Shown: positions 15,420 through 29,939 of the stretch, piece by piece
Numbering within the stretch: the stretch's first letter is position 1
Layout: each line of letters opens with the position of its first letter
Assembly (NCBI GenBank): GCA_965197795.1
Contig: OZ240228.1
Span: 813,128-877,127 of the forward strand
Source: Dehalococcoidia bacterium
GTDB taxonomy: Bacteria > Chloroflexota > Dehalococcoidia > DSTF01 > WHTK01
Direction: 5' to 3'
Length of the DNA: 64,000 nt
Program-made: the position numbers and the translations under genes
The notes under the pieces: model-generated
Told to the model about the DNA's origin: nothing
Seen by the model: only the letters and a program-made list of their open reading frames with translations
Databases searched by the model: none

Positions 15420-16553
15420 ATGAAAGTCACCTGCACTCAGGAAGCCCTTTCGCGCGGACTCAGCGTTGTTGGCAGGGCGGTCGCTGCACGCAGCACCCTG
15501 CCGATTACGTCTCACGTTTTGATCACGACTGAGGATGACGGGAAGCTACGCCTCTCGGCCACCAATCTCGAGATCACGATGAACTACTGGATCGACGCGG
15601 AGATAGGCGAGCCGGGTTCGGCGGCGGTGCCGGCGCGACTGCTGACCGACTTCGTAAACACGCTGCCGTCCGACCGAATCACGTTGGAGCTGTCGCCTCG
15701 GTCTCGACAGCTTAAGGTCGAGTGCGCGCGTAACGAGGCCCAGATCAGCGGCCTCGACGCGGAGGATTTCCCGCCCACGCCGGTCGTCCAGGACGGCATC
15801 GAAGTCCAGTTGGAGGCGAAAGGCCTGCGTCAGGCGATCGCTCAGACCGTGTTCGCAGCGGCAACGGACGATTCGCGGCCCGTGCTCACCGGCGTCGACA
15901 CGAAATTCGACGACAACCTGCTGACGCTGGCGGCCTCGGACGGATTCCGGCTTTCCGTCTACAAGCTGCCCCTGGCAGCATCGGTGGAAGCAACAGAGAT
16001 CGTCGTGCCATCACGCGCGCTCTCAGAACTGAGCCGTCTGCTGGCCGAGCAAGACGAAGCGGTGACGCTGCGAACGAACGCGGCGAAGACGCAGGTGCTG
16101 TTTCGCTTGGCCAACGCCGAAATGGTGGCGCAGCTGATTCAAGGCACGTTCCCCAACTTCAACCAGCTGATTCCGCCTAGCTCCACCAGTCGCGCCGTGG
16201 CGGAGGTGGGCGAATTCTTGCGCGAGACGCGGACGGCCTCGGTGTTCGCCCGCGACGGTTCTGGGATTGTGCGTCTCGTGGTTACGCCAGGGCAGGGTGT
16301 GACGCCCGGCAAGATCGTAATCTCGGCACGCGCCGAAGAAGTGGGCGATAACGAGGGCGAGATCGACGCGGCCGTCGAAGGCGAGGGCGTGAAGATCGCG
16401 TTCAACGGCAAGTACTTGCAAGACGTCCTGCAGGCCCTCGAGACCGGGCAGCTCGCGATGGAGACGACGGGTCCCTCCAGCCAGGGCGTCTTCAAGACGC
16501 TAGGAGACGACAACTACGTCCACGTCATCATGCCGATGTTCGTTCAATGGTGA
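15420..16553 (+). CDS. dnaN: DNA polymerase III beta subunit (sliding clamp)
   Basis: 377 aa with three-domain clamp signatures (LRLSATNLEI, TGVDTKFDDNLLTLAASDGFRLS, IAFNGKYLQDVLQAL). Confidence 0.85.
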   Translation: MKVTCTQEALSRGLSVVGRAVAARSTLPITSHVLITTEDDGKLRLSATNLEITMNYWIDAEIGEPGSAAVPARLLTDFVNTLPSDRITLELSPRSRQLKVECARNEAQISGLDAEDFPPTPVVQDGIEVQLEAKGLRQAIAQTVFAAATDDSRPVLTGVDTKFDDNLLTLAASDGFRLSVYKLPLAASVEATEIVVPSRALSELSRLLAEQDEAVTLRTNAAKTQVLFRLANAEMVAQLIQGTFPNFNQLIPPSSTSRAVAEVGEFLRETRTASVFARDGSGIVRLVVTPGQGVTPGKIVISARAEEVGDNEGEIDAAVEGEGVKIAFNGKYLQDVLQALETGQLAMETTGPSSQGVFKTLGDDNYVHVIMPMFVQW

Positions 16554-18086
16554 TAAACCGACGCGAGGTTTTGGGACCTGCGAGTCGTCCAATGGCAGCA
16601 CTCCGGCAACCGTCGCCCGCTCCTGGGTCGCCGTCACGCTGACCTGGAGCGCTTCCAGAATCTGCTCGCGGTCGCGCTCGCTGGCTCGATCGAGCCAGGC
16701 TCCGACCGCCGTGCAGGCCGAGTGCAATGCCGCTTCGTCCATGGCTCCGTAGGCTGACGCGTCTAGTGGCTGTAGCGACTTGAGCCGCTCGGTGATCACC
16801 TCCTGCTGCCGCCGGATGTCGGCCAGTTCAGTCTCGACCACGTCCTCATTGACTTCGCCGTAGCCGAACAGGCGCACGAGCCGTGCCTCCCGCTTCTTGA
16901 GCGATTTGAGCTGGGCGTCTAGGCGACCGGCCTCTTCGGGGTCGGTGTCGGAGTCCGCCGAGCGTGTGAGCTCGCGAAGCACCACCTCCGGCGAGGCGAG
17001 CAGCCGCCGCATCTCGGTCCAGGCTCCCGCCTCCAGGGCGTCGGCCCTCACGTAGCGCCCCGAGCATTCGCGCCCGGTGTTGGTGTCGTAGGAGTGGTGG
17101 CAGCGATAGTAGCTGTACTCGCGCCCCTTGCTCTTAAGCGTCTGGCCGACCATGGCGCCGCTGCAGATCCCACAGCGGGCCCGCCCGCCCAGAGCGTAGT
17201 GGCGGTGGGTGCCCTGCCGCCGCGCTCGCTCCGGATCATGGAGGATCGTCTGCACGCGGCGCCATATGGCGGCGTCGATGATCGGGGGCGAGGCTCCGGG
17301 TACCGCAATGTGCTCGTCGAGCGGTCGCTCGATGACCTCGCTGCGGCGCCGGCCGTTTGCGGCGCGTGAGCTAACGCGCTTTGTGCGCCGGTAGACGGTG
17401 TGGCCGGTGTAGGTCTCGTTTGTCAGCACGCGCCGGATGGTGAGCGGGTACCAGCGGCCACCGGCCAGCGCCGGGATGGCAGCCTCGTTAAGCTCGCGTG
17501 AGACCGCCGAGAAGCTCCTCGTCTCGGAGTAGCGCTCGAAGATGCGCCGCACGACGGTCGCCTGGAACGGCTCGAGCTCGCGCTGACCCGTTGCCTGCTC
17601 ATAGGTGTAGCCATAGCAACCGGCTCCGGTCCCCTGCGGCAGGCGGCCCGACCGCGCCCGCTCCACCTTGCCGCGCATTGTTCGCTCAGCAATCTTCTCC
17701 CGCTCGAACTCGGCGGCAAACGCCTTAACCGATCGCAGGAGCTGACCCGTCGCGGTGTCCTCGAAGTTCTCGGTCACGAACTGAAGAGAGACTCCACGCT
17801 CCTCCATCTCCTCGACGAGGATGGCTACGTGAGTCTGCTTTCTGCTGAGCCGGTCAAGGGCATAGGAGAGGACCACGTCAACCATCGCCTTTGCGGCCAA
17901 GGCCCGAACCTCGGTTAAGCCAGAACGCTCAAGACTGAATCCGCTGGCTGAGTCCCTAACAGTCCCCTCCACCGTCCAGCCATTCTTCTCGGCCAGCGCA
18001 AGACAGGCCCTCTCCTGGGTATCGAGCGAGGTGCCTTTACGTTCCTGAGCATCGGTTGAAACACGGCTGTAGATCACGCACTGCAT
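16500..18086 (-). CDS. large serine recombinase (serine integrase)
   Basis: N-terminal resolvase catalytic domain MQCVIYSRVSTDAQ...SLDTQ. Recombinase domain and zinc ribbon (CGICSGAM...YYRCHH) follow, with a coiled-coil C-terminus. Its 3' end overlaps the dnaN 3' end by 54 nt on the opposite strand. Confidence 0.85.
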   Translation of the reverse strand: MQCVIYSRVSTDAQERKGTSLDTQERACLALAEKNGWTVEGTVRDSASGFSLERSGLTEVRALAAKAMVDVVLSYALDRLSRKQTHVAILVEEMEERGVSLQFVTENFEDTATGQLLRSVKAFAAEFEREKIAERTMRGKVERARSGRLPQGTGAGCYGYTYEQATGQRELEPFQATVVRRIFERYSETRSFSAVSRELNEAAIPALAGGRWYPLTIRRVLTNETYTGHTVYRRTKRVSSRAANGRRRSEVIERPLDEHIAVPGASPPIIDAAIWRRVQTILHDPERARRQGTHRHYALGGRARCGICSGAMVGQTLKSKGREYSYYRCHHSYDTNTGRECSGRYVRADALEAGAWTEMRRLLASPEVVLRELTRSADSDTDPEEAGRLDAQLKSLKKREARLVRLFGYGEVNEDVVETELADIRRQQEVITERLKSLQPLDASAYGAMDEAALHSACTAVGAWLDRASERDREQILEALQVSVTATQERATVAGVLPLDDSQVPKPRVGLSPLNEHRHDDVDVVVVS

Positions 18087-18113
18087 TGATCCCTCGAATC
18101 CTCACTCTTCCAA

Positions 18114-18347
18114 TCAACGAGGCCGGCTGCCGCGACGCCGCCAGTCTTCGAGTTCCTTCTTCGCATTTCTGCCGCCAGGGCCGAATCTATGGCGACTCAG
18201 GAACTCGGGAACTCCTCCGTATTCAAGAAGAATCACTGCGGATTCGGCCACCTTGTCATGACCGGCCAGAAAGAAAGAGCCACGGCGGGCCTCCTTGCCA
18301 CAACCACACCAGCAATACCCGGTCGGGATCAAACGTTGGCCTGTCAT
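18114..18347 (-). CDS. small Cys-rich hypothetical protein (GYCWCGCG...FLAGHDK)
   Basis: ATG at 18347 preceded by AAGG. The short zinc-ribbon-like motif resembles small accessory ORFs of recombinase modules. Confidence 0.3.
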   Translation of the reverse strand: MTGQRLIPTGYCWCGCGKEARRGSFFLAGHDKVAESAVILLEYGGVPEFLSRHRFGPGGRNAKKELEDWRRRGSRPR

Positions 18348-18396
18348 CCTTGAACCTCTTTCTTGAATTGTATGCAAGCATGCTATCCACGCCACG

Positions 18397-19395
18397 TCAA
18401 GCGTCTCGGGCAGCATCAAGGGCTTCTTGTGCATGAAGCTGATCATGCCGATGAAGCATCCGGTCAATGGATGCGGCACGGCGTCGCCCTAGTACTAGTC
18501 GGATCGAATGGTCGTCAAAGTCCATGCTTCGCAACCATGCGGCAAGCGTGGCCACTAGTTGCGGACGAGTCGCCTTCGGCCAGCCTGCAAGCACGCAACT
18601 TGCCCGGAGACTATCCCGGAAGGCTCTTTCTGAGAGTCCTGCGTCGGAAGGACGACCTCGAAGGACGAAGGCATCTCGGTCAAGCCCGGAAGCCAGTCCG
18701 TGCTTCAGCAGCGACTGCGCACCTGGTCCGACCACGAAGACAGTAACCCGATGCCCTCGCCGCATGACCTTAGCTTCCCAATACGGGGTCAGGCCGTCAT
18801 CGTGCCACGTTAGGTCTCGCCATCTGAGCTCACACATCTCCTTCACATCGATCCCGCTAAAACATGCCAACGCAGCAATTGCACCTGAGATCGGGGTCCG
18901 GGTGATCCCGGCATTCAAGATGTGCTCCAAGGCGTCGGCAGTTGGTGTTGGCCCCGGCATGCGTCGCCGACTTCTGGAGCCGGGTACGGACACGCCCGCG
19001 TCGTACCAGCCCTTGACCGCTTTCTTGGGAAGAGCAGCCTGGAACATCCGCACTCGCTGGCGCCCAAGGTAAGGCGATACACCCATCATGAGGAATCGCT
19101 GAAAGGCGCGGATGCGCGTGAGTACGGTGGCCATTCCAAGCCCCTTACTCGCCTTCTCAATTAGCATCGCGGCCGCCTCGGGATCGCCACGGAGTTCTCG
19201 AAGGCTGACGCTGGTCAATTCCTCCGACAGACGCGCAAGACTCCGAAGCTGAGAAACCTCCGAAGCTACCGTAGAGGCTGCTCCGCCCAGGTCTCTGCGC
19301 CACGTCTGGAAGACAGACAACTCTTCAAGGGATGGAACAGACAGCGGGACCGCAGGGCCAGGTTGGAAAAGTTTCCCTTGAGCATCCATGCTCAC
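18397..19395 (-). CDS. tyrosine-recombinase-like protein (no catalytic Tyr found in its C-terminal region); second gene of a tandem pair
   Basis: 332 aa. Its start overlaps the upstream recombinase stop by 4 nt. It has an integrase-like fold with R..H..R-like residues but no C-terminal Tyr. Possibly a degenerate or accessory paralog. Confidence 0.45.
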   Translation of the reverse strand: MSMDAQGKLFQPGPAVPLSVPSLEELSVFQTWRRDLGGAASTVASEVSQLRSLARLSEELTSVSLRELRGDPEAAAMLIEKASKGLGMATVLTRIRAFQRFLMMGVSPYLGRQRVRMFQAALPKKAVKGWYDAGVSVPGSRSRRRMPGPTPTADALEHILNAGITRTPISGAIAALACFSGIDVKEMCELRWRDLTWHDDGLTPYWEAKVMRRGHRVTVFVVGPGAQSLLKHGLASGLDRDAFVLRGRPSDAGLSERAFRDSLRASCVLAGWPKATRPQLVATLAAWLRSMDFDDHSIRLVLGRRRAASIDRMLHRHDQLHAQEALDAARDA

Positions 19396-20669
19396 TTCAT
19401 CTCCACCAGCACCGTGGGAAGTTGGGCTGGACCACCGTTTTCAGGGGCAGTCGAGAGAGACGACAATCGAGTCCTTAGGCGCGTCAAGGACGGCTGAACA
19501 TAGTGATCGTCCATTCGGCGCGGACTGGTCCAGTTACCAGCCAGCGAAGCGACTGAACGCGAAACGAGCGTCGTCGCGAGAGTTGCAAAAGCCCTTCTAT
19601 AGCCGTGAGCGGTGAATGCCTCAACACCAGCCTGAGAACACGCGACAGCCAAATCCCTCGACCATTGTCGGTATGTCCAGGCCCCCGCCGTTATCCGTCT
19701 CCAGAAGGGGCCAGGCACACCAAATCCGATGCGCTCCGAATGAACAAATGCCCTTGCCCACGTATTGAAGGCCACGACATAGGCCTCCAACGCATCGAGA
19801 GCGGCCTTCGGCACGGCCACCTCGAAGGGCTGGACGGAACTCTTTGCCTTGAGGATCATGCGGCCTTGACCATTAGGAAGCCTGTGCAAGTCAGCGCCGT
19901 CTAGTCGAAGGAGGGCACCTATTCGTAGACCTCGATCCGCCAGTAGGCACAGTAGCGCCTCGTTGCGGGAGCCAATCCAGCCCTCACCGCGACTCAGGAC
20001 ATGCCGAACCGCTTCGGCCTCGTCGGGCGTGGGCATTCGGCCTCCACGACCACGAGACCAGCCAACGGGCAATCGGTAGCCGGTTCCGACTAACTCGGCG
20101 ACCTGTTGGAGAGCCTGATCGACATTGCCCGCTGGTTGGGGCAAGCCGAACTGTTTGAGCTCGACCTCCATCAGGAGTGCGAATGCTCGAGCCACACTGC
20201 GTCTCTGGGAAGCGAGCCATGCTGTAATGCTCCGTCCGCCATCTGACGCCATTCCACTAGCCAAGGTCTTTCCCAGTAGATCAAGGTCCGAATAGAACCT
20301 AACCAATGAGACCGGCTCGCCCAGGAGCGTTGTCGCAAGCATCAGCGAATCACGCAGTACCCAGGAGTATTGCCGAACTGTCGCCGCTGTGAAGCGGTTG
20401 GCGACCCGCCTGCCAAACTCCGCAATGAGCGCTGCGTCGTCTGCAGGTAGGCTGGCCACCCGCCCAGTTCGTCGCTTGAGGTCCCGTGACTCAGCGCCGC
20501 AACCTGGTAGAGCCTGCTGAACGTCAGTGCCGATCTTTGCAATCTGTTCGTCTAAGTCGACTGCCGATCTTTGCTTAGTAGTTTCCGTGTCAAGCTGCGA
20601 CCAGAATGTCTCGGTGTCTTCCGCAGAACGGCAACCAAGAAGGGGTTGCGCTGAAGTCGGCGCCTTCAC
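19392..20669 (-). CDS. tyrosine recombinase/integrase (true start probably downstream of 20669)
   Basis: C-terminal catalytic motifs AHGYRRAFAT...LAGNW...DHYV (H-x-x-R ... Y). An N-terminal SAM-like core-binding region is present. Repeat unit occ1 lies within the 5' region annotated by the ORF track. Confidence 0.7.
   Translation of the reverse strand: MKAPTSAQPLLGCRSAEDTETFWSQLDTETTKQRSAVDLDEQIAKIGTDVQQALPGCGAESRDLKRRTGRVASLPADDAALIAEFGRRVANRFTAATVRQYSWVLRDSLMLATTLLGEPVSLVRFYSDLDLLGKTLASGMASDGGRSITAWLASQRRSVARAFALLMEVELKQFGLPQPAGNVDQALQQVAELVGTGYRLPVGWSRGRGGRMPTPDEAEAVRHVLSRGEGWIGSRNEALLCLLADRGLRIGALLRLDGADLHRLPNGQGRMILKAKSSVQPFEVAVPKAALDALEAYVVAFNTWARAFVHSERIGFGVPGPFWRRITAGAWTYRQWSRDLAVACSQAGVEAFTAHGYRRAFATLATTLVSRSVASLAGNWTSPRRMDDHYVQPSLTRLRTRLSSLSTAPENGGPAQLPTVLVEMK
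20525..20581 (-). repeat. bipartite repeat unit, copy 1 (reverse orientation, degenerate B half)
   Basis: cagtGCCGATCTTTGCAATC-[14]-GACTGCCGATCTTTGCTTAGTAG, compared with reverse-complement unit GACTATCGATCTTCGGAGTC-[13]-GACTGTCGATCTTTGCTTAGTAG. Confidence 0.6.
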
Positions 20670-20847
20670 GAACTGGTCTCATTGTCTAAGTCTCGGATGG
20701 AGACTTCGGCAAAGATACGGCGCCACAACTCCAGCCAGGCAGGGGTCAGTTCTGGGACTGCTTGCCAGTCCACTTGCACAGCAATGGCGCTCACCCTCGG
20801 CTTGGCCGAACGTGGACAAGGGTCTGACGGGTGGTGTTCGCTCATAC

Positions 20848-20997
20848 AGGTAGCCCCCGAGAGGCCTGGCCTGCCAGTCTGGCGCTCTCGGGGGCTTGGT
20901 CACCGCCAGTGGCGGTTGCCCACGAATTGGGTTGGCAGGCTTGAACCTCGTTGGTTCTTGCCTGTAAGGCGTGACGAAGGGCGTCACATCGTGACGG
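20848..20997. repeat. conserved ~150-bp palindrome-rich segment at the 3' flank of the 391-aa gene; a second copy (~85% identical) is at 58608-58757
   Basis: Shared ggtagcc.ccgagaggcc.ggcctgccag...ggttgcccacg.att...gaacctcgttggttctt.cctg.aa.ggcgtgacga...gcgtcacatcgtgacgg. It contains CGTGACG/CGTCAC inverted repeats. Confidence 0.6.
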
Positions 20998-21009
20998 AGT
21001 CCATCACGG

Positions 21010-22185
21010 CTAAGTGGTTATCTTCCACTCGATGGCTTCTTCGGGCTCATAGGAGAAGCTGGCGCCACGTTTAACTGAGTGCTTCAAGTGACTCGCGAGG
21101 GCTGGCAAGATATCCGCAAGCTGATCCTCGACTCGGTCGAGGGCATGAGAGATGCTTGTGCGCGCCTTCTCCGCTGGCCCTTGAACGCGGCGAGGCCGGC
21201 TCCCGAGTCCAATGACCTGCCTTAGTTGTTTCTGCAATGACGACAGCTCATCCTGCTCCTCATTGGAGAGCAGCCCGCTTCTCTTGCGGGCGTCTAGCTC
21301 GGCAATCCGTCGCTGGTAGTCCCGTCGGGCATCCGTGTCTATGACCTGATCGGACTCCATTTCATCTATTCTCAATTCATCGTCGTGACTTGGCAGCGAG
21401 CCGGCTGACGGACCCGATAGGGCCAGCAGCTCGAGAGCACCGATCCTCTTGCCGGGATTGGCGAGCAGATGGGACAGATACGCCAGCCCGACATAGTTCC
21501 GGACCGTCTTGCTTACACCCGTCCATGTGGCGGTCCAGTGTTGGCCGGATTTCACCAGCGCGTACCCAGGGAGCGTCTCCAAGCGACCGAACTCCGGGAT
21601 CTCTACTGATAGTCTTGCGTCTTGCTCACGAAGCATCGCCGGCAGCGAGCACACTCTGCCTGCCAGCCACTGGGGCACGTCCTCGCTCAGAACCACGAAG
21701 AGCGCTTGCTTCCGCCCGCCACTCGGCGCGAATAGCGCCGGTGCATCCGGCCAGCCCACACCCCTGAGGAGATGCACCTCCAGACCTTGACTGGAACCTA
21801 GACTCCAGTGGCGCCCGCGCATTGCTTCACGAGGGGTCCTCCCTGTCTCCAAGACGCGGACAAGTTGTGCCGCGATGCCTTCGATGGAGATACGCCAGCG
21901 CTTTAGCAGGATCGCGTCCAATTCAACCCTGCCGTTCAGGGGGCAGTAGATGTAGGCCGGAGCGCCGTCTTCGCCGAAGGTGACAGTTTCTGAATGAGGC
22001 TCGTCGCATTCGGTGCAGCTCACTCGTGATTGGGACCCGGTCGGTTCTAGCAGGCCTAACTCCGCAAGCGACCGGACGGCGCCTTCCGGCCAGCTTTGGG
22101 TCTCGTCGCCCAGAACCAGCTTCGGGGTATCTCCTGGAAGGTCAGCCCGAATCAACAGCTCGGTCGCAATGTCGATCAGTGTCAC
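21010..22185 (-). CDS. hypothetical protein (391 aa, Cys-x2-Cys zinc-ribbon-like N-terminus, coiled-coil C-terminus); first gene of an uncharacterised two-gene operon
   Basis: No family recognised. The C-terminal ~85 aa are paralogous to the fragment at 58765-59000. Confidence 0.5.
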   Translation of the reverse strand: MTLIDIATELLIRADLPGDTPKLVLGDETQSWPEGAVRSLAELGLLEPTGSQSRVSCTECDEPHSETVTFGEDGAPAYIYCPLNGRVELDAILLKRWRISIEGIAAQLVRVLETGRTPREAMRGRHWSLGSSQGLEVHLLRGVGWPDAPALFAPSGGRKQALFVVLSEDVPQWLAGRVCSLPAMLREQDARLSVEIPEFGRLETLPGYALVKSGQHWTATWTGVSKTVRNYVGLAYLSHLLANPGKRIGALELLALSGPSAGSLPSHDDELRIDEMESDQVIDTDARRDYQRRIAELDARKRSGLLSNEEQDELSSLQKQLRQVIGLGSRPRRVQGPAEKARTSISHALDRVEDQLADILPALASHLKHSVKRGASFSYEPEEAIEWKITT

Positions 22186-23387
22186 ACGCCTACTAGCTCC
22201 CCGATGACACGCTCCAGATTGGACTCCGTAAGAGCCTTCCTAATGATCCCGTCGATGCCCTCGTGGTCGAGAAGGCACCCATTTCGAGCAAGGGTGAAAG
22301 TCTTCGTTCTTCCGCGTCGCTTCTTGCCAATCGGTCGGAACTGAGCCTGGAGTTTCACCCGCTCAACATCCATCAAGAAGAACGGGTATTTGTCCGTGGC
22401 CTCGCCTGGGACCACCGACCAGTACCGGCTTGCCACGTTGAGGACGCCCTTTCCAGGTGGCCCTCCAACCTCAACTGTTACGCTGCGTCTTCCGTCCCTA
22501 TCCCTGACATTCACCCACTTCACCTCGATACTTTCGAGTCCAGTGGGTGGATCGATGTAAAACTCGAAGGACTCGTCCTTCAGGCGATTGAGGTCATAGA
22601 TGGTCGCGGGGCCTCCGTCAGGCGGAAGGTTCATCCCCATCGCGACGATTCCAAACAACTGCTGGAGGTCTCTTACCTTCTTCTTGGTCCCCTGACAGAA
22701 GACCTCCAAATTACCCGTGTCGGGGCAGTAGAAGAAGAGCAAATCAGAAGCGGGCCGAATTTTCCGCCTAATCAACTCATCGGCCGCGTATTCGAGGACC
22801 GTCGTACCGAAGTCTTCGGGGTACGCGAGAAAAAGCGTGCCAGTTGCCCGCTCAAGGTGCTCGACCTGACAGTGAGAGCCACGTCCTTCCTCGCGCAGTA
22901 GATAGGCGGTGAGCTCGCTCGAGAGTCTCTTGATGACTGCGGCGCCTGTACTCGGGTGAAGGTCTTTCCCGATGAAGCGGCGCCGCCAGTATCTGCCATT
23001 AAGGGTATCTGCGGCTCGGAAGCGCACCAAGTCTGCGAATAGCTCTGGCCACTTTAGCAGTAGCCACAGGGCAGCGTCGTAGCTGCTTTCCAGAGCCGTG
23101 AGAACGTCTGTGAGGTCGAGCTCTCGCGCCTTTGCTTCCTGATAGATGACGTGCTGGCCATCATCATCAGCGAGGTCATAAACATCTTGGAGGTCCTGCT
23201 CCACATCAATCCGCCTGTCCGGAGGAAGGTCTTGAATGGCCGCACCTAAAGCTTCAACGTCACACTCGTCTTCCTCCAGGAATTGCTGGCCAAGAAACAG
23301 GTCCCGAGAAAGGAGGTACTCTCGGAGGAGATTCCACTCGAATTGACGCAAGACTCCTTTAGTTGAAAACGCATAGCGGTGACTCAT
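22182..23387 (-). CDS. hypothetical protein (401 aa), translationally coupled (4-nt overlap) to the downstream 391-aa gene
   Basis: Long clean ORF with no recognisable motifs. Its stop overlaps the start of 21010..22185. Confidence 0.5.
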   Translation of the reverse strand: MSHRYAFSTKGVLRQFEWNLLREYLLSRDLFLGQQFLEEDECDVEALGAAIQDLPPDRRIDVEQDLQDVYDLADDDGQHVIYQEAKARELDLTDVLTALESSYDAALWLLLKWPELFADLVRFRAADTLNGRYWRRRFIGKDLHPSTGAAVIKRLSSELTAYLLREEGRGSHCQVEHLERATGTLFLAYPEDFGTTVLEYAADELIRRKIRPASDLLFFYCPDTGNLEVFCQGTKKKVRDLQQLFGIVAMGMNLPPDGGPATIYDLNRLKDESFEFYIDPPTGLESIEVKWVNVRDRDGRRSVTVEVGGPPGKGVLNVASRYWSVVPGEATDKYPFFLMDVERVKLQAQFRPIGKKRRGRTKTFTLARNGCLLDHEGIDGIIRKALTESNLERVIGELVGV

Positions 23388-23613
23388 AGCGGGCCTCGTT
23401 TAGAACAAGGGGCGGGGACCCCAACTGACAACTCATCCGGGTCATCTCGTGAACAGTTTCCGATTCCCCTGTCAGGCCCGCAATACCCTGGCGGACTATA
23501 GGCACGCGAAAGTCATCCACATATCGAAACAGCAGATTCGAGACGCGACTACCGGAAGGACTTGCGGCACAGCTCTAGCGGCCAGCTGAGCCAATCCGAG
23601 GAGGATGAGTGGG

Positions 23614-24315
23614 TTATGCGCGCTCGATTGCCACGGTGCCGTCCTCTTGCACCCAGGCGAGGGAGAAGTTCACGGTCCCGCTTAGCCAGGACACCTTTTC
23701 CGAGAGGTTGCGGTAGGTGATGAATTCCGGTAGAGCGAGCATTAGGTCGGCCGTGGAGTCCTCTCCGTGCCAGGCGCAGACCTCGAAGAAAGCGCCGTAG
23801 AACCAGTTTCTAGCCTGGGTGAATGGCGTCGTTCTCTCAGTTCCAGCCGGCCTTCCCTTGACGCTAGCCCAAAGCTCTCTGCCGTCCTTGCGGACCACTA
23901 TGTCCTTGCCGTGCTCGCGCGAGGACGTATCGGCGACGCGGACCACGTCGAAGCCTTCCTTCACAAGGTGACGAACGACCGCTGCCTGCACGTTCCCTTC
24001 CCAGAACCACGGCCGGTCAGAAATGACGGTGGCCGCGACCTGAGGTTTCTGCGCTGGCGAGGCCACGAAGTAGTTTCGGATGCCGTCTTCCTCTTGCCGG
24101 CGCACGATTAGTCCGGCGGACGCGAGCTCTCTACATCTCTGGTTCACCTGCGCGTGGTGCTTCACACCGAGCGCCTGGCGCAGATCCGAATCTGTCACAC
24201 CTGACGAAGAGGCGCTCATATAAGCGAGGATGGCGTCCTTGATGGTCTTCCTGCCCTTCCCTAGCTTCTGCTTCCTGGCCATCCGCCTGTTCGGGGTGGG
24301 AGGCTTCGAAGTCAT
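23614..24315 (-). CDS. winged-HTH protein with an uncharacterised C-terminal domain (possible restriction-endonuclease-like fold)
   Basis: Internal ATG at 24315. wHTH: LAYMSASSSGVTDSDLRQALGVKHHAQVNQRCRELASAGLIVRR. C-terminal: GFDVVRVAD...EHGKDIVVRKDG...VKG. Confidence 0.45.
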   Translation of the reverse strand: MTSKPPTPNRRMARKQKLGKGRKTIKDAILAYMSASSSGVTDSDLRQALGVKHHAQVNQRCRELASAGLIVRRQEEDGIRNYFVASPAQKPQVAATVISDRPWFWEGNVQAAVVRHLVKEGFDVVRVADTSSREHGKDIVVRKDGRELWASVKGRPAGTERTTPFTQARNWFYGAFFEVCAWHGEDSTADLMLALPEFITYRNLSEKVSWLSGTVNFSLAWVQEDGTVAIERA

Positions 24316-24753
24316 CAGACTGCAACAATCGATCTGTGTCGAGTGCCCATCACCCATCAGAGGACGGATAACCATGCGAGCGGCAGTATAACTGCTCACC
24401 GGAAACGTGATCGCAGCCTGACGATCCGTGGACGGCTGGCCAAGCGAGTCCACTTAGACTCTGGTTTCCGGCACTGGCAGCGCTGACCCGCTACGCACCA
24501 ATCCAGCGACCCGCCCTCGGCAAACAGACACTCACCGCTTGCCGACCAGAACCGCGCTTGCGGCCCGTAAAATGGGTCCCCGGCTCCTGCCTGGTGGCAG
24601 CAAGTTGCGGATTACCTACTCCCAAGGTGCTTTCTCGAGGTTCAGATGAGTCACGAGCGAACAGATGGCAGCAGTCCACCAGAGCGCGGCTTCTGTCTGA
24701 GGTGCGCGGAACGCCGCAACGCAACCTCGCCGTGGACCTGCTGCAGAAGCTGA

Positions 24754-25104
24754 TCAGGGCGAACTCTCCACCCAGAGTCGTTTTTCTGGCGGCAGCCTTA
24801 CGCCGGGGCCATCAACTGGGGGGTCACCGATCTCGAGGTAGGCGCAAAACGCTGGGTGAATCGAGTACCTGATTGGGCCTCGTGGCCTGCGGTTTCGTGC
24901 GTGCGACTGAATCTTCGGAACACCCGAGAGCTCGTGGACGAATCGAAAGTCCCCATCTCCAACTTCCAGTCCAAGGAAGCCCCGAGCAATGAGATGGTTC
25001 TGCACGCTCTCTACCTGCTGTTCTGCAACGCCGGCCCTCTCGATTGCTTGACGGACTTCGGCCTCTGGAAGGACCGACCTTTGCCCGATGAATTCGTACA
25101 GCAC
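24754..25104 (-). CDS. hypothetical protein; possibly the C-terminal piece of a fragmented gene that extends to about 25500 in other frames
   Basis: Protein-like stretches continue upstream in two other frames (MKQAANS...LLRVIEERF..., then ...ILPRPWDLIQSCNAAIGAAV...). Confidence 0.25.
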   Translation of the reverse strand: MLYEFIGQRSVLPEAEVRQAIERAGVAEQQVESVQNHLIARGFLGLEVGDGDFRFVHELSGVPKIQSHARNRRPRGPIRYSIHPAFCAYLEIGDPPVDGPGVRLPPEKRLWVESSP

Positions 25105-25570
25105 GTTCTCGATCTCTTCGACTGTGATACCGTTCTCAACCGTGAGAGATTCAAGGGCGAATTGAGAGTACCAGCTTCTGCGATTCGTACGTCCCCGGGT
25201 TCAACTCGACTATGCCGGTGATTTACTGCAGCACCAATTGCTGCGTTGCAAGACTGGATAAGATCCCATGGTCGGGGCAAGATCCGCTCGATAATGTAGT
25301 CGCGGGTCGGTATGCCGTTGATCTGCTCACGGAAGAACGCTCCCCGAGGTGAGAGGGGTCAGTCCCCTCGCGCTGATTCCGCCAGAAAGCGTTCTTCGAT
25401 CACCCTAAGTAGGAGTTCAGGATCGGTCCAAGCCAACCGCTGAACCGGCAGCTTGTCTGGCTCGCGCGCCGCAGAAGGGGTCGTAGCCGAGTTGGCCGCC
25501 TGCTTCATTGGTCCTTGCTTGCGTAACAGGTCCTTGCAGTTTCCTGCGTTTTCCCTGCTGTTTTGAAGCT

Positions 25571-25626
25571 GGAGCCACTGACTTTTAATCCGTCGGTCCT
25601 GGGTTCGAATCCCAGAGGGCCCACCA
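25571..25626 (+). tRNA. tRNA-Lys(UUU) 3' fragment: anticodon arm, variable loop, T arm, acceptor 3' strand and CCA; the 5' acceptor strand and D arm are absent (att-site remnant)
   Basis: ACTGA-CTTTTAA-TCCGT / CGGTC / CTGGG-TTCGAAT-CCCAG / AGGGCCC-A-CCA. The anticodon loop matches bacterial tRNA-Lys. No complementary GGGCCCT 5' strand is upstream. Confidence 0.6.
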
Positions 25627-26046
25627 CCAACCCTGCATCAGAGCACATATGGCTCAGAGTTCTGAGGACCCTGGACGAACAGAGCAGGCTGAGGACGGCG
25701 ACGACTGCGAATGAGATGGCCACGAGCGTCTGGCCGGCGGCGAGGAAGGCAAGAGCCGACAGACCGAACACTGCCATTTCGACCAGAAACCTGCCTGTGT
25801 CAGTCAGCCACGCCGCTGACTTCGGCGCGACCAGCTTCCACCAAACGAAGATGGCCGCGCCAGGCGCCAATGACGATCCCTTCCGCCAGATTGTCGCCCG
25901 CGTGGATGCCCCAGTACATGAGGGCCAGCAGGGCGCACAGTTCGAGGAGGCGACGGCTATCGCGAATCGCGCCCTCTCAACGGAGAATCCCTAGCTCCCG
26001 CCGGAGCTCGTCCTTCGCAACCTTCCAACCGAGAACAGCGAGGCGC

Positions 26047-27633
26047 TCAGGGCAAGTCAAGGACGGAGTCGAACTCTTCCCTTACTTTCATATCCGGCGT
26101 AATCAACTTAGCGAGTACATCTGCCGAAAACTGCGAGGGGTTTTCTCCGATCCCTTCGGTGTCGCCCAAGACACTCTTCGCAACATCGAACACTACACCC
26201 AGGGCTCCTTTCGCCGACCCGTTCGGACGAATCGCCCCATCGCGGGCTACCTTGAGTTGATCGGCCGCGTTTTCTACGCGGGAGCCTCGATCGCCTACCA
26301 GTGCATCAAGAACTTCGTCATCTAGAAGGTACGACTCCAAGGAGTGGCGTTCGAGCACTCTTAGATTCGGATCACTCTTGAGTAGGCGGGTACGGTTCTC
26401 TGGAGTAAGGTCATCGCGGTCGCGCAACTTTAGAAGACGCGTCCCTGGCGCAATCACCGAAGCTATCTGAGCCGCCTGTTCAAGCTCGCCCTTGCCCCCG
26501 CTGGACTTGAACTCCACCCGTGGGTGCAGGTCACGGAAGACCTGCCGGTATATCCGTTCGTCCCACACGGGAACTCGGTCACTCACTTGGCTCCCCTCGC
26601 AAATAACCAGAACCTCTGGAGCGAGAAGCCTAGCCAGATCGTCCAAGGCAACGGACATCGCCTCACGCAGGAGTTGGCCTGAGGGCTGGGACGGCTTGAG
26701 TTGGACATCTGGGGCTGGCCCCTTGACCTGTCCGAAATCCAAGAAGGCAACCCGGCCGGGCTCGGCGGTGGACATGTCGAACGCTCTACGGATCATCCCG
26801 ACAGAGTGAGTGGCGATCCACAACTGCGATCCATCTGGGAGAAGCCGTATGAGCTCAGTGAGCACAGAGGCCTGCACGGCGGGGTTGAGGTGGATCTCAG
26901 GCTCGTCAAGGCAAATCAGGGGGGTGCCCAGCTCTGTCGCCGCAATGTGGACATCCAACAGCAGGTCGAAAACGGCCTTCTCCCCGCCGGAGAGGCTCTC
27001 GTATCGGAATCGTCGGATGTCGTCCCTAGTAAAGTAGAAAGAACCGTTCGATGTAGCATCCCCCAACCCCGTGAAACGCAAATGCGGCAACACGCGTGTG
27101 AGAGAGTCTTGCACTGGCGCCAGCGTGGCCCTAACCGTCTCAAGGTCTCGAACGGCATCACTGCTCTCCAAGTTCGATAGGACCGGAACGAAACTCGCGA
27201 CGAGCCGCTGATAGTGCTCACCGAGAGCTTCGTCTGTCTCGACCATGCGGTCGAAGGATTCACGGCTGCGAAAGTCTTGCTGTCTCTCGATGGAATTCGC
27301 CAATACGTCTGGAGTATTTCTGTGGGCAGTTCGCACATGAACGAGCGGACCCAAGGGTTCTGAGGATCCAGAATCATCACCGTCGTGCAGGGTAACCTCA
27401 GGTCTGCCAAACGTGCCCGTCTCAGAATCGAAATAGTCACCGGAAAAGCCTCTACTCATAGTTCTGCCTTTGTGCCGTGCCCATTCAAGAAACGCGTCAA
27501 AGACGGAAGACTTGCCCGTCCCGTTCGGGCCGAGCATCACCACGAGTTCGACGTCGACACCTAGCGCCTGGATCCCTAAAGAACCGAAGCGCTTGAACTT
27601 GCTGGGAATCCTGACTTCCGATACACGCATGAG
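26047..27633 (-). CDS. OLD-family (or fused PARIS-like) ABC-ATPase + Toprim nuclease
   Basis: Start MRVSEVRIPSKFKRFGSL...VMLGPNGTGKSSVFDAF (Walker A). ABC signature LSGGEKAVFDLLL and Walker B LICLDEPEIHLNP. C-terminal Toprim: VLVICEGSQVSDRVP...LKLRDRDDL. Confidence 0.75.
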   Translation of the reverse strand, partial: LMRVSEVRIPSKFKRFGSLGIQALGVDVELVVMLGPNGTGKSSVFDAFLEWARHKGRTMSRGFSGDYFDSETGTFGRPEVTLHDGDDSGSSEPLGPLVHVRTAHRNTPDVLANSIERQQDFRSRESFDRMVETDEALGEHYQRLVASFVPVLSNLESSDAVRDLETVRATLAPVQDSLTRVLPHLRFTGLGDATSNGSFYFTRDDIRRFRYESLSGGEKAVFDLLLDVHIAATELGTPLICLDEPEIHLNPAVQASVLTELIRLLPDGSQLWIATHSVGMIRRAFDMSTAEPGRVAFLDFGQVKGPAPDVQLKPSQPSGQLLREAMSVALDDLARLLAPEVLVICEGSQVSDRVPVWDERIYRQVFRDLHPRVEFKSSGGKGELEQAAQIASVIAPGTRLLKLRDRDDLTPENRTRLLKSDPNLRVLERHSLESYLLDDEVLDALVGDRGSRVENAADQLKVARDGAIRPNGSAKGALGVVFDVAKSVLGDTEGIGENPSQFSADVLAKLITPDMKVREEFDSVLDLP

Positions 27634-27753
27634 TTCTGGTCCTACACCCACCCGAAAAGGGGCCCCTCTGTCACGCTCTCGGTCTGGTCGACGTATTCGT
27701 CGGCATCCCCGTTGGCTGCGCAATTCTTCAATCGCGACACCACTCGACAAGGA

Positions 27754-28074
27754 TCAAGTAGAGGTCTGCCAGCTTTCAGCAAAAGCCGCAACCTCACTCT
27801 CGGTCTTCGGATGGCAAGCCCTATGAACCAAGGCTCCGTTGCCAAGTTGCGTCAGCCCACCTTTGTGATGCTCCTTCACATGGTGAATTTCCGCCTCAGG
27901 CCAGTTTACTTCTGAGTGGCATCGAGATGGTAAAGCATGCTGATCCTTGCTGGCGCGCGTCACGAAGGCATTGGCGCGTTGTTCGACAGAGCTTGGAGGC
28001 TCAGAGCCGCTTTCGGCGTTACGTCCTAGCTCGTTATAGCCAAGCCCACCCGGAGGCTTCTGAGTGGACCCCAC
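27754..28074 (-). CDS. small HNH endonuclease, directly upstream of the OLD-family gene
   Basis: EIHHVKEHHKGG...GNGALVHRACH (H-N-H spacing). 120-nt gap to the OLD start on the same strand. Confidence 0.5.
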   Translation of the reverse strand: MGSTQKPPGGLGYNELGRNAESGSEPPSSVEQRANAFVTRASKDQHALPSRCHSEVNWPEAEIHHVKEHHKGGLTQLGNGALVHRACHPKTESEVAAFAESWQTST

Positions 28075-28119
28075 ACTGGATCGAGGCTCATGTGCCAGCG
28101 CAGGAATGGCGTCCTTCGC

Positions 28120-28470
28120 CTATTCGCCTCGCCGCCATACGGTGGGGTCGCAGAATACGAGGCGCCACAGCGCAGAATCGGAGCCATACCCGAAGCTGCC
28201 GTCAGGCTCCTCGACGATCCAACGGCATTCGAAGGACCCGGGCGTGTCGTTCACGGTTGCATCGCCCCTCGATAGCCAGATGGCCGGCGCAGTGTTCTCC
28301 ATCTCGGTTACGCGAAAGTCCGAGAGGTCGAAGCCTTCAAACGCCTCATGCAGTCGCCCGGCCATCTGGCCCAGCGATTTCTCCCCTTTATCGAGCCGCC
28401 TAGTCGGGAAGCGGGCAAGCGCACCGAAGTTCCGCTCACGCCAACCGGTCAGGAACTCAACGGTCAGCAC
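28120..28470 (-). CDS. hypothetical protein
   Basis: 116-aa ORF with protein-like composition. Function unknown. Confidence 0.3.
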   Translation of the reverse strand: MLTVEFLTGWRERNFGALARFPTRRLDKGEKSLGQMAGRLHEAFEGFDLSDFRVTEMENTAPAIWLSRGDATVNDTPGSFECRWIVEEPDGSFGYGSDSALWRLVFCDPTVWRRGE

Positions 28471-29936
28471 GTGGATCTCGTGGTCGTCGAAGCGAGCATC
28501 GGGAACCGAGAGATGCGCCGCCCCAGGGGATACGAAGGGGATAGCGTCGGCAAATGTGGGGGCTCATCCTGAGAATGACGCTGTCCAATCCGAACTGCTA
28601 CTCCGCGCTTTGCAGCGGCTTCCGCTGTCTTCTCGAGCAGCTGACCGATGACCTTGTGGCTAGTTGCCGTGACGCCAACCCTCTTCCCAGCAGCCGCCAG
28701 GTCCACGATCATCTCCGCACCGACTGTGGTCTTGCCGGAGTCCGGCGGCCCCTGCACAGCGAGGTAGCTGGCATCCAGCTGAGCCACGAGGCGACGAGCA
28801 GCCGCCTCGGCTGGTTCGTCTGGGCTAGCAAGACTGTCGCCGTTTGGCTGACCAGCGTTGGGAGGCTTTCGTAGCAAGAGGTCTCGAGCAGCTCGAAACG
28901 GCCCCGCTGCGTCGATGCCGTTGTCGATCACCCACTCTGCGATTCGTCGCAGGTTGGCTTGCTGCTCCGGCGTGCGAATATCCTCGAGTGGCACCAAGGA
29001 AGTAGGACTTGGTGGGTCAGCGTTCCTGCCTCGCTTGATCTCGATGGTGCTTGAATCGTCGTCGATAGCGACAACCGTGCCGACGCGCTGACCATCCTGC
29101 GCGGGATCGCGAGGCGTGGAGCCGACGGTGATCTTGTGGTCTTGGGGTGGAAAGCGGAAGCGGTAGATAATCGACTGCCTCTCCTGGCCGACCGGGCCGT
29201 CCGCAATGAGGTCCCCCATGGCGTCGGGCTCCGCAACGCGTTCTTCATCGGTCAGATCGTTGACCAGGTAAAAGTAGCGCCACCACATCGACTTCTCTTC
29301 GCGGCGGTGCCAGCTGAGAAGCTGCGCCAATAGCCGACGTCCCTGCTCCTCGGCGCTGCGGCTGGAAGGGTCTTCGGAAACGCCAGCGACCAGCTTTCCC
29401 GTCAGTTCGAGCGTCAACGCGAGCAACTGCGTCAGATCCTCACTTGCGGTGCCGCTGTCCGCTGCAGGCCTCGGTAGTTCCCCTCCGAGGTCAGCCGCCA
29501 GTTGAGTTCGTAGTGTTTCTAGCCAATCGCGTAACCGCCAAGTGGAGACGCAATCGTCTTTGTTGTATTCCTCGATGCGCTGCAGGATTTCTGGGTCATC
29601 TTCAACCTCGCCACCGAGCTCAAGCCAGGTCTCGAAGGCAACGATGCTCGAACCCGCGTCACGCAAATCGACTGTACGAGTGAACCCGTAGAGGGGTTCC
29701 AGCTTCTTGATCGAGTAGCTCTCGACGGAGGCACGGATGCCCTGACGCACAGCTCGAAACAGATCGACAAAGACGCCGCCACGGAGGAGCCGGTCGACTT
29801 CGTCCTCGCGCGTACCGTAGCGACCCATGAGACGACGCACGGCGGTCTGCTCGTAGGCAGCGTAGTGGTAGATATGAAGGTTTGGGTCCGCTTCGAGACG
29901 GAGCATGACGAGATCGATAAACGCCTCGAACGCCAT
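28464..29936 (-). pseudogene. fragment of a RecB-like nuclease / RNase-H-like exonuclease / SF1 helicase (TM0106-type) gene, truncated at both ends
   Basis: YprB-like 3'-5' exonuclease region (IYHYAAYEQTAV...KDDCVSTW). Walker A LAVQGPPDSGKTTV...VGVTATSHKVIGQLLEK follows, then the frame decays. The N-terminal PD-(D/E)XK part is absent and an IS3 orfA lies immediately upstream. Confidence 0.55.
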
Positions 29937-29939
29937 GTG

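What the first reader, a model, noticed from the sequence alone, without database searches (positions are those of the whole stretch)
16500..16553. Large serine integrase gene overlaps the 3' end of dnaN by 54 nt on the opposite strand
The island begins exactly at the end of the sliding-clamp gene, and the convergent integrase ORF shares its last 18 codons' worth of DNA. This suggests the att site lies within the dnaN 3' end and that the element supplies the present dnaN C-terminus. Integration into the 3' end of an essential replication gene is a notable target choice.
Basis: seen in the sequence. Interest (0 to 1): 0.5.

Follow-up and report, generated by a model that had tools for sequence, protein, structure and literature searches.

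The report
Mobile island inserted in dnaN's tail
A serine-integrase mobile island carrying anti-phage defence genes has inserted about 20 bases before the end of the essential sliding-clamp gene dnaN and rebuilds the gene's last six codons, and this previously unreported insertion site recurs across Dehalococcoidia.

Summary
dnaN (15420-16553, +) and a full-length large serine recombinase (LSR) gene (16500-18086, -) overlap by 54 nt.

The overlap is the attL junction of an integrated element. The last 26 nt of dnaN recur at 58003-58028 (23/26, still coding IPMFVQW*), which is the far junction and lies inside the window. Joining the outer arms of the two junctions gives a 50-bp imperfect palindrome (18/24 arm matches; background 6.35 +/- 2.2). 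It is centred on CC, the first two bases of the Pro372 codon.

The inferred crossover is therefore at 16533-34. The element supplies the last 19 nt of dnaN (Met-Phe-Val-Gln-Trp-stop). The LSR ORF has no stop of its own and runs 33 nt further into antisense dnaN.

The site is general:
- 19 of about 76 Dehalococcoidia species genomes have an LSR or LSR remnant overlapping the dnaN stop.
- 36 metagenome contigs carry displaced dnaN ends with palindrome-type left arms.
- LSRs located away from dnaN still carry the dnaN-end mimic.

The 41.5-kb insert is a mosaic defence island (Druantia II and others). It is followed by another, LSR-less element, so this is a tandem array.

The mechanism is conventional. 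The target site appears unreported in the literature I could search.

The parts
15420..16553 (+). dnaN (beta sliding clamp), 377 aa, intact. The last 19 nt (16535-16553) are inferred to be element-derived.
   Evidence: Pfam PF00712/PF02767/PF02768. 93-95% aa identity to relatives L003-L005, with conserved upstream synteny. PDB beta-clamp matches.
16500..18086 (-). Large serine recombinase (integrase) gene, 528 aa. Residues 1 to about 510 are the conserved enzyme. Residues about 510-518 are encoded by the P' arm. Residues 519-528 plus the stop are antisense host dnaN.
   Evidence: Pfam Resolvase + Recombinase + Zn_ribbon_recom. PHROG integrase E 2e-107. 475 homologues. Tail analysis.
16500..16553 (.). 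The 54-nt dnaN/integrase overlap that was flagged.
16509..16558 (+). attL: host B arm 16509-16532, central dinucleotide CC 16533-16534 (Pro372 codon), element P' arm 16535-16558 (gatgttcgttcaatggtgataaac).
   Evidence: Homology with relatives ends at 16553-16560.
57984..58033 (+). Far junction (attR-type): element P arm 57984-58007 (gtttatcaacgatgaacagtcatc), CC 58008-58009, then the displaced dnaN end.
   Evidence: The P arm plus the P' arm give 18/24 dyad matches; only 4 of 63950 window positions reach 17 or more.
58003..58028 (+). Displaced copy of the last 26 nt of dnaN (23/26 identical; encodes IPMFVQW*).
   Evidence: blastn/tblastn. 43-nt match to the L007 dnaN end plus downstream sequence, E 5e-9.
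16535..58009 (.). Inserted DNA, 41,475 bp, GC 0.612 versus 0.647 for the host. It is a mosaic island: integration module, defence systems, phage-packaging remnants and a replication/excision-like module.
18397..20669 (-). Two divergent tyrosine-recombinase-like genes (18397-19395, and 19392-20669 or a shorter ORF from about 20252) directly behind the integrase. The trio is conserved in L001 and L085.
   Evidence: Weak Pfam Phage_integrase hit. PHROG integrase E 8e-8. Gene tables of L001 and L085.
56454..56828 (-). HTH_17/MerR-type excisionase-like gene near the far end. It is a candidate directionality factor, which is inference only.
   Evidence: Pfam HTH_17. PHROG 66 excisionase.
58010..64000 (.). 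A second, integrase-less or decayed element of the same family (GC 0.567). It starts with the dnaN-end mimic and the 240-bp 'X' sequence, and carries a truncated LSR at 59059-59913 (+). It runs off the window.
   Evidence: In L087 it is 11.7 kb long and is followed by another P-arm-CC-X junction.
58011..58250 (+). Repeat 'X'. Inverted copies lie at 32072-32310 and 48718-48947, each with a degenerate dnaN-end motif.

Best explanation
The overlap is attL, the left junction of an integrative element placed by its own large serine recombinase (LSR) into the last codons of dnaN.

Proposed steps:
1. The circular element carries a roughly 50-bp attP, an imperfect palindrome GTTTATCA...CC...TGATAAAC.
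2. The right half of attP (P') lies inside the 3' end of the integrase gene. On the opposite strand P' spells the last residues of the clamp, (P)MFVQW-stop.
3. LSR dimers pair attP with the dnaN end (attB) and cut both at the central CC of ATG|CC|G (Met371-Pro372). They rotate and religate. This step is family knowledge, not shown here.
4. The result is dnaN(1-16534) + P' + integrase ... island ... P arm + CC + the displaced old dnaN end.
5. dnaN stays full length with an unchanged protein sequence, so the essential gene is not harmed.

The integrase ORF has no stop before the crossover. When integrated it reads on into antisense dnaN (HDDVDVVVVS-stop), which produces the 54-nt overlap. When excised it would instead end with a 34-residue tail read from the P arm (552 aa).

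The site has been used repeatedly. The window holds a tandem, mosaic array: a 41.5-kb defence island followed by an integrase-less relative.

Shown: the anatomy, the repeats, the palindrome and the recurrence. Inferred: the exact cleavage position, present-day activity and excision.
For: - Domain architecture of both genes.
- Synteny with relatives is conserved upstream and ends at the dnaN stop in all ten close relatives. GC steps down across the segments.
- The dnaN end is repeated at 58003-58028, 23/26 and in frame. It is homologous to the dnaN end plus downstream sequence of L007 (E 5e-9).
- The composite attP scores 18/24 about CC, against a window background of 6.35 +/- 2.19. The centre does not depend on the register used for joining.
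- The only non-synonymous attL/attR mismatch (G16532 vs C58007) lies immediately left of CC. The two mismatches to the right are synonymous.
- 19 of about 76 species-representative Dehalococcoidia dnaN loci have an LSR or remnant overlapping the dnaN stop.
- Homologue C-termini are the antisense reading of the dnaN end, in two frames.
- LSRs not adjacent to dnaN (L086, L091, L097, L120) still carry CC + PMFVQW* at their 3' end.
- 36 metagenome junctions have non-dnaN left arms (29 distinct) with mean dyad 12.8/24. The 34 dnaN left arms score 6.9/24.
- The same right flanks occur with dnaN on the left or with a P arm on the left, as expected for empty and occupied sites.
- Short insertions bounded by a second dnaN-end copy occur in L006, L060, L078 and L080.
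- Removing 16535-58009 in silico leaves a 377-aa dnaN with the same C-terminus.
Against: - No empty site and no excised circle was found for this species. The exact P-arm pattern gave 0 metagenome hits, and viral contigs gave nothing relevant.
- The cleavage position is inferred from dyad symmetry. Sequence comparison alone only bounds it between 16533 and about 16558.
- DNA to the right of the far junction (X) is itself repeated. That junction is therefore element-to-element, and the native host flank is not seen.
- The island contains gene fragments (Cas3g N-terminus, TerL fragment) and inverted att-like relics. It may no longer move as one 41.5-kb unit.
- Near-identity of the right half-sites of attB and attP is atypical for characterised LSRs.
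Confidence: 0.82

Rival explanations
1. The same element and integrase are involved, but the crossover lies at or after the dnaN stop codon. In that case the whole dnaN end is host DNA and the copy at 58 kb is part of the element's P arm.
For: attL and the far junction are similar all the way from 16528 to 16553. Sequence comparison alone allows any crossover up to about 16558. In marine lineages TGATAAAC is native downstream sequence.
Against: No dyad centre near the stop codon was found, and every joining register gives CC as the best centre. 29 distinct non-dnaN left arms are symmetric about CC. The dnaN-end mimic stays linked to the integrase side in junctions that lack dnaN, as expected for P' and not for P. 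The Met-to-Ile change sits just left of CC.
Confidence: 0.1
2. The junction is a fossil. The integrase placed the island long ago, and the array is now fixed and decaying, with cargo changing only by homologous recombination.
For: There are gene fragments and inverted att-like relics inside the island. The integrase is truncated in relative L005, and only remnants remain in L003 and L004. No circle or empty site was found.
Against: The integrase here is full length with all three domains and is 97.5% identical to that of L001. Contigs that are 99% identical in the flanks carry different cargo between the same junctions (L001, L087, L088). This shows recent turnover.
Confidence: 0.3
3. One of the two adjacent tyrosine-recombinase-like proteins, not the LSR, integrates the island. 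The 23/26 direct repeat would then be a tyrosine-integrase core.
For: A direct repeat of a gene's 3' end is the classic signature of tyrosine integrases. Two such genes sit next to the LSR.
Against: Across distant elements it is the LSR gene that abuts and reads across the junction. Its C-terminal codons are the site. The symmetry extends 24 nt on each side, which is LSR-sized and not the roughly 30-bp core of a tyrosine recombinase. A separate 16-nt motif with 7 copies is a better candidate for the tyrosine enzymes.
Confidence: 0.04
4. There is no integration. The overlap is a long-ORF artefact of a GC-rich genome with native gene order.
For: Long antisense ORFs are common at 65% GC, and 33 nt of the overlap is indeed chance run-on.
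Against: Everything listed under the best explanation argues against this. In particular, gene order downstream of dnaN differs in every relative and a second copy of the dnaN end lies at 58 kb.
Confidence: 0.01

Closest known systems
Dehalococcoides ssrA-specific genomic islands with the DsiB serine integrase (McMurdie et al. 2011, PMC3146451)
   Same: Same bacterial class. A roughly 540-aa serine integrase sits on the reverse strand directly next to attL. The target is the 3' end of a single-copy essential gene. Short direct repeats of that end mark the island boundaries. Islands are tandem and carry variable cargo.
   Different: The target here is the protein-coding dnaN end, not tmRNA, so the element must also conserve a reading frame. 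The integration module is the LSR plus two tyrosine-recombinase-like genes, not DsiB/DsiA/RecF/ParB/Mom. The integrase ORF itself crosses the crossover point.
SCCmec / CcrAB integration into the 3' end of rlmH (orfX) in staphylococci (from my own knowledge and as summarised in PMC3146451)
   Same: Serine recombinases insert an island into the last codons of a conserved gene while keeping it intact. Arrays and composite elements occur.
   Different: Two recombinases (CcrA + CcrB) are needed there. The recombinase genes lie inside the cassette and do not read across the junction. The target gene and the host phylum differ.
Phage serine integrases (phiC31, Bxb1, TP901-1, A118, SPbeta SprA)
   Same: Same three-domain architecture. 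attP is about 50 bp with dyad symmetry about a non-palindromic central dinucleotide. The nearest solved relatives are TP901-1 and SprA, at low similarity.
   Different: Characterised attB/attP pairs share little beyond the central dinucleotide, and several disrupt their target (comK, groEL1, spsM). Here the right half-sites are nearly identical over 19-24 nt, because P' must re-encode the clamp C-terminus. P' also lies inside the integrase coding sequence.
Streptococcus pneumoniae phage-related island between dnaN and ychF (PMC6375853)
   Same: A mobile element lies immediately downstream of dnaN and excises spontaneously.
   Different: That integration is intergenic, with 14-bp repeats outside dnaN. 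The integrase lies at the far (3') junction and the paper does not describe it as a serine recombinase. It affects the ychF promoter, not the dnaN coding end.
Accretion of integrase-less 'CIME' elements next to ICEs (the Streptococcus thermophilus ICESt1 family; from my own knowledge)
   Same: Elements are tandem and share att sites. One element lacks its own integrase and could be mobilised in trans.
   Different: Those systems use tyrosine integrases at fda. Here the evidence for trans-mobilisation of the 58-64 kb element is only its structure.

Membership tests
Large serine recombinase (serine integrase) | N-terminal resolvase catalytic domain with the serine nucleophile | tested here: met
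   PF00239 E 3.4e-33 over residues 4-148. The motif VIYSRVSTDAQ is present.
Large serine recombinase (serine integrase) | C-terminal recombinase domain plus zinc-ribbon domain | tested here: met
   PF07508 E 3e-21 and PF13408 E 1e-9. PHROG 95 integrase E 2e-107.
Large serine recombinase (serine integrase) | attP of about 50 bp with imperfect dyad symmetry about a non-palindromic central dinucleotide | tested here: met
   The composite site scores 18/24 about CC, at z of about 5. 29 independent P arms score a mean of 12.8/24, against 6.9 for dnaN arms.
Large serine recombinase (serine integrase) | Catalyses attP x attB integration, with cleavage at the central dinucleotide and excision that needs a directionality factor | not testable with these tools
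   This needs a recombination assay. An HTH_17 protein (56454-56828) is only a candidate factor.
Islands that insert in the 3' end of a conserved gene and restore it | Recombinase gene at the island edge next to the target gene | tested here: met
   The LSR is the first island gene and is convergent with dnaN. The same holds in 19 species genomes.
Islands that insert in the 3' end of a conserved gene and restore it | Copy of the target's 3' end at the distal boundary | tested here: met
   58003-58028, 23/26. Also seen in L006, L060, L078, L080 and L087.
Islands that insert in the 3' end of a conserved gene and restore it | Target gene stays intact with an unchanged product | tested here: met
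   dnaN is 377 aa with the C-terminus ...VIMPMFVQW, as in relatives. In-silico excision gives the same protein.
Islands that insert in the 3' end of a conserved gene and restore it | Empty sites in related genomes | tested here: inconclusive
   Marine metagenome pairs share the same right flank with dnaN on the left or a P arm on the left. No empty site was found for this species. L003, at first taken as empty, holds an LSR remnant.
Dehalococcoides ssrA-GI (DsiB) family | Integration at ssrA (tmRNA) with a 20-bp ssrA repeat | tested here: not met
   The target here is dnaN, and no tRNA or tmRNA gene is in the window.
Dehalococcoides ssrA-GI (DsiB) family | Six-gene integration module including the small serine recombinase DsiA | tested here: not met
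   Behind the LSR are two tyrosine-recombinase-like genes and proteins of unknown family. Compare the module description in PMC3146451.
Phage satellite / phage-inducible island | Integrase, replication module and small terminase, but no capsid or tail genes | tested here: inconclusive
   There are two small-terminase genes and a TerL fragment. A P-loop 620-aa protein and a 387-aa zinc protein have no family hit. No structural genes were detected, but many ORFs are unannotated.

The most novel reading that the evidence does not exclude
In this integrase clade one 20-bp stretch does three jobs: it is the recombination half-site, the replacement C-terminus of the essential clamp, and the integrase's own last codons. 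In the window's subclade, integration swaps the integrase tail. The excised form has 34 residues read from the P arm, and the integrated form has 10 residues read from antisense dnaN. This swap could act as a built-in sensor of integration state, for example by changing integrase stability or directionality. That would be analogous to integration-dependent switches known for some mycobacteriophage tyrosine systems.
Probability: 0.1. Interest if true: 0.7.

Novelty: new member of a known kind. Interest (0 to 1): 0.45.

Why it matters
The finding identifies the end of dnaN as a recurrent landing site for serine-integrase elements across Dehalococcoidia from soil and sea. This DNA encodes the Met-Pro-Met motif. 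In E. coli the last five clamp residues are needed for the partner-binding cleft (PMC2685083).

Practical consequences:
- It explains why many genome assemblies break at this gene.
- It gives a simple marker (a second copy of the dnaN end) for delimiting islands.
- It points to a set of integrases with a highly conserved natural target in a class of bacteria that has almost no genetic tools.
- It shows how an element can target an essential protein-coding gene safely, by carrying a copy of its last codons inside its own integrase gene.

Tried and rejected
- Exact look-up of the integrase and of the 288-aa end gene found nothing on record.
- The viral-contig scan with the P-arm pattern gave two chance matches, and the integrase had no viral relatives.
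- The exact P-arm-plus-core pattern gave 0 hits in JGI metagenomes, so no excised circle or second occurrence was found.
- I first took 'TGATAAAC' as element-specific and 'TGAGTAAA' as the native flank. I rejected this because TGATAAAC follows genuine dnaN ends in marine lineages.
- I first took L003 as an empty site. I rejected this because it holds an LSR remnant.
- I first took the 240 bp right of the far junction as native host DNA. I rejected this because it is repeated three times in the window and twice in tandem in L087.
- I took homologue tails (IEQTSA, QRASA) as proof of dnaN adjacency. That is only partly right, because P0044 and P0018 are not next to dnaN. The tails show the element-borne mimic, not the integration state.
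- Rfam and blastx searches of the X repeat found no RNA family and no integrase remnant.
- Literature searches for dnaN as a serine-integrase target returned nothing relevant.

Full report
**Observation.** The window encodes dnaN at 15420-16553 (+) and a 528-aa ORF at 16500-18086 (-); the two share 54 nt. Pfam finds the three beta-clamp domains in the first. In the second it finds the Resolvase + Recombinase + Zn-ribbon architecture of large serine recombinases (LSRs). The LSR ORF has no in-frame stop before TAG at 16500-16502.

**Host and context.** The closest dnaN genes come from soil Dehalococcoidia genomes assembled from metagenomes, at 93-95% aa identity. The upstream genes (HAD hydrolase, hemL-type aminotransferase, PNPOx, dnaN) are syntenic in these relatives. 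Nucleotide homology stops within 7 nt of the dnaN stop in all ten close relatives examined. GC is 0.647 up to 16534, 0.612 from 16535 to 58009, and 0.567 from 58010 to 64000. No tRNA gene is present.

**The far junction.** The last 26 nt of dnaN (16528-16553) recur at 58003-58028. The match is 23/26, in frame, and still spells IPMFVQW-stop. This copy plus the next 17 nt matches the dnaN end and downstream sequence of relative L007 (43 nt, 90.7%, E 5e-9 against the window).

**Where the crossover is.**
- Joining the DNA left of the 58-kb copy to the DNA right of the dnaN end gives gtttatcaacgatgaacagtcatc-CC-gatgttcgttcaatggtgataaac. Its arms match as an inverted repeat at 18 of 24 positions.
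- The same score over every position of the window has mean 6.35 and sd 2.19. Only 4 of 63,950 positions reach 17.
- The best centre stays at CC whichever register is used for the join.
- A roughly 50-bp imperfect palindrome about a non-palindromic dinucleotide is the known form of LSR attP sites, which are cut at that dinucleotide. This is established knowledge from phiC31, Bxb1, TP901-1 and A118.
- CC is 16533-16534, the first two bases of the Pro372 codon in ...Met371-Pro372-Met-Phe-Val-Gln-Trp-stop.
- The only non-synonymous difference between the two junctions (G16532 versus C58007, Met to Ile) lies just left of CC, on the side that need not code in the far junction. The two differences to the right (16544, 16547) are synonymous.
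- I therefore infer that 16535-16553 is element DNA that re-creates the last residues of the clamp, and that 16500-16532 is host DNA.
- Deleting 16535-58009 in silico leaves a 377-aa dnaN with the same C-terminus.

**Why the ORFs overlap.** The integrase's conserved sequence ends near residue 510. Residues GLSPLNEHR are the antisense reading of the P' arm, and residues 519-528 (HDDVDVVVVS) are antisense dnaN. In the excised circle the ORF would instead read 34 residues from the P arm, giving 552 aa. Of the 54 nt, 21 are structural and 33 are run-on.

**Generality: species genomes.** An HMM built from 120 homologues finds an LSR or an LSR remnant convergent on and overlapping the dnaN stop in 19 of about 76 species-representative Dehalococcoidia loci. 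These LSRs are only 30-37% identical to the window's in several cases. The commonest overlap is 26 nt, where the integrase stop TGA is the complement of TCA in aTCATGCC, two bases from CC.

**Generality: homologue tails.** Among the 120 best homologues (49-93% identity), 43 end in peptides that are the antisense reading of the dnaN end:
- ...LSPLN(E/K)HRH... in the window's frame;
- ...F.TIEQTSA-stop in the other frame;
- ...ILQRASA-stop, which is antisense to IMPMR.

The rest carry other conserved tails and probably use other targets.

**Generality: integrases away from dnaN.** Integrases that are not next to dnaN still carry CC followed by the PMFVQW-stop mimic at their 3' end, with a palindrome-type left arm. 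These are L086, an element with TraG/relaxase genes; L091, in a 3.8-Mb chromosome; and L097 and L120. The mimic therefore belongs to the element.

**Generality: metagenomes.** A metagenome scan for CCGATGTTYGTTCARTGGTGATAAAC returned 72 loci.
- 34 have dnaN on the left and 36 have a non-dnaN left arm (29 distinct arms).
- The non-dnaN arms match the right arm as a palindrome about CC at 12.8/24 on average (up to 19). The dnaN arms score 6.9/24, which is background.
- Several right flanks occur both with dnaN on the left and with a P arm on the left, the pattern expected of empty and occupied sites in one population.

**Generality: short insertions and assembly breaks.** Short insertions bounded by a second dnaN-end copy occur in L006, L060, L078 and L080. 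L004 has an inverted copy. Seven of the 80 genome contigs end within 50 nt of the dnaN stop, consistent with assembly breaks at a variable site.

**What is inserted.** The 41.5 kb is a mosaic.
- Behind the integrase lie two divergent tyrosine-recombinase-like genes. This trio is conserved in L001 and L085.
- Next come an AriA-like ATPase, an RNaseH/AAA_11 protein and an HNH protein.
- A Cas3g N-terminal fragment follows.
- There is a Druantia type II set: DruE2 at 36350-41731, DruF2 at 41728-44805, and a DruM2-like cytosine methylase at 46439-48103.
- There is a restriction-enzyme-like gene.
- There are two small-terminase genes and a TerL fragment.
- Near the far end are unannotated 620-aa P-loop and 387-aa proteins and an HTH_17 excisionase-like gene.
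- Contigs from other samples are 99% identical in the flanks but carry different cargo between the same junctions (L001, L087, L088). Cargo turnover is therefore recent.

**The array.** The 240 bp to the right of the far junction (X, 58011-58250) is not unique host DNA.
- Inverted copies with degenerate dnaN-end motifs lie at 32072-32310 and 48718-48947.
- In L087 two direct copies of CC + dnaN-end + X lie 11.7 kb apart, each with a different palindrome-type left arm.
- The region after X is homologous to the region that follows the recombinase trio in the window's own element and in L085.
- I read 58010-64000 as a second element of the same family that lacks the recombinase trio. It carries only a truncated LSR in the other orientation, at 59059-59913.
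- The array resembles the tandem ssrA islands of Dehalococcoides.
- The native right flank of the locus is not in the window.

**Comparison with known systems.**
- The mechanism is that of serine integrases.
- The strategy of inserting in the 3' end of a conserved single-copy gene and restoring it is that of tRNA/tmRNA islands, SCCmec at rlmH, and the Dehalococcoides ssrA islands with DsiB. It is not a member of the DsiB island family, because both the target and the module differ.
- In pneumococcus an island sits between dnaN and ychF, but it is intergenic, with its repeats outside dnaN.
- I found no paper describing the dnaN coding end as a serine-integrase site, nor any mention in the text or held supplements of the large LSR survey. 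The library is incomplete, so this is absence of evidence only.
- Deleting the last five residues of the E. coli clamp disrupts its binding clefts (PMC2685083). This explains why the element must re-encode these residues.

**Limits.**
- The cleavage position, present activity and excision are inferred.
- No circle or empty site was found for this species.
- The island may be too decayed to move as one unit.

**Verdict.** This is a real and well-supported attL junction. It is a new target site for a known kind of element, with a neat three-way use of one 20-bp stretch, and it is widespread in Dehalococcoidia. Interest is moderate.

Noticed in passing
window 20564-20579, 30566-30581, 32085-32100(-), 47801-47816, 47901-47916(-), 48723-48738(-), 58221-58236: The 16-nt motif TCGATCTTTGCYTAGT occurs 7 times (0.03 expected). 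It is the end of a 55-80-bp repeat that contains two direct CTGTCGATCTT boxes. Sequence diverges immediately after ...TTGCTTAGTAG in every copy. The cargo breakpoint between the window and the 99%-identical contig L001 falls exactly there, at 20581. L085 has at least four copies. It may be a recombination site for the two tyrosine-recombinase-like genes, or a cassette boundary.
   Followed up: partly
window 32072-32310 and 48718-48947 (inverted) versus 58011-58250: There are three copies of a 240-bp sequence that starts with a dnaN-end-like motif. The two internal copies are inverted, and each is followed by about 350 shared bp and a small-terminase(-like) gene (32083-32667 ~ 48721-49304, 88%). 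They may be old junctions that were later inverted. There is no Rfam hit and no integrase remnant.
   Followed up: partly
window 36350-48103: A Druantia type II defence system is present: DruE2 (1793 aa, 1630 bits), DruF2 (1025 aa, E 1e-150) and a DruM2-like C5 methylase. An HhH-GPD protein and an EcoO109I-like nuclease gene lie between them.
   Followed up: partly
window 26047-31315: Other defence-like genes are present: an AriA/AriAB-like ABC ATPase (567 aa), an RNaseH_2 + AAA_11 protein (weak MkoA hit) and an HNH protein with PtuB-like hits.
   Followed up: no
window 33311-34886: There are fragments of a type I-G/U CRISPR-Cas system: the N-terminal 230 residues of Cas3g (E 8e-70) and a short Cas_GSU0054 piece. 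No array was looked for.
   Followed up: no
window 49391-52371: There are two small-terminase genes (Terminase_7, Terminase_4) and a 202-aa large-terminase fragment, but no capsid, portal or tail genes were detected. This suggests satellite-like or decayed prophage ancestry.
   Followed up: no
window 59059-59913 (+): A truncated serine integrase (recombinase domain plus part of the zinc ribbon, with no catalytic domain) lies in the second element, in the opposite orientation to the active-looking one. It is conserved in L087, L088 and L089.
   Followed up: partly
L086 (JGI 3300007351, 72-kb contig): An integrase of the same clade (P0019) ends an element that carries TraC/TraG-like, primase, relaxase and Fic genes. 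The same integrase type therefore serves conjugative-type elements as well as defence islands. Its junction has a P-like left arm and no dnaN.
   Followed up: partly
homologues P0029-P0120: Other subclades of the same integrase family end in different conserved peptides, for example ...FI(T/K)DEQSSRCSFSG(D/E) and ...N(D/N)HADAR.... By the same logic these may be antisense readings of other target genes. The P0073 integrase overlaps a 184-aa gene of unknown function.
   Followed up: no
L090 (GCA_030447245.1): An integrase with the tail ...ILQRASA sits next to ...ccacgtcatcatgCCgatgcacgttgcaagataa. This is a 17-nt dnaN-like left arm and a different C-terminal mimic (PMHVAR*), with no dnaN gene nearby. 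It hints that the site is used outside Chloroflexota; homologues are labelled Vicinamibacterales.
   Followed up: partly
genome loci L002, L013, L015, L040, L041, L050, L053: These contigs end inside or within 50 nt of the last codons of dnaN. This suggests that the variable site commonly breaks metagenome assemblies.
   Followed up: no
window 3344-3384 and 53393-53456: There are two long palindromes, of 41 nt (97.6%) and 65 nt (86%). The second lies at the 3' end of the 620-aa P-loop gene.
   Followed up: no
window 13521-16553: dnaN is not preceded by dnaA here. The upstream genes are a HAD hydrolase, a class-III aminotransferase and a PNPOx-like gene, an order conserved in relatives.
   Followed up: no
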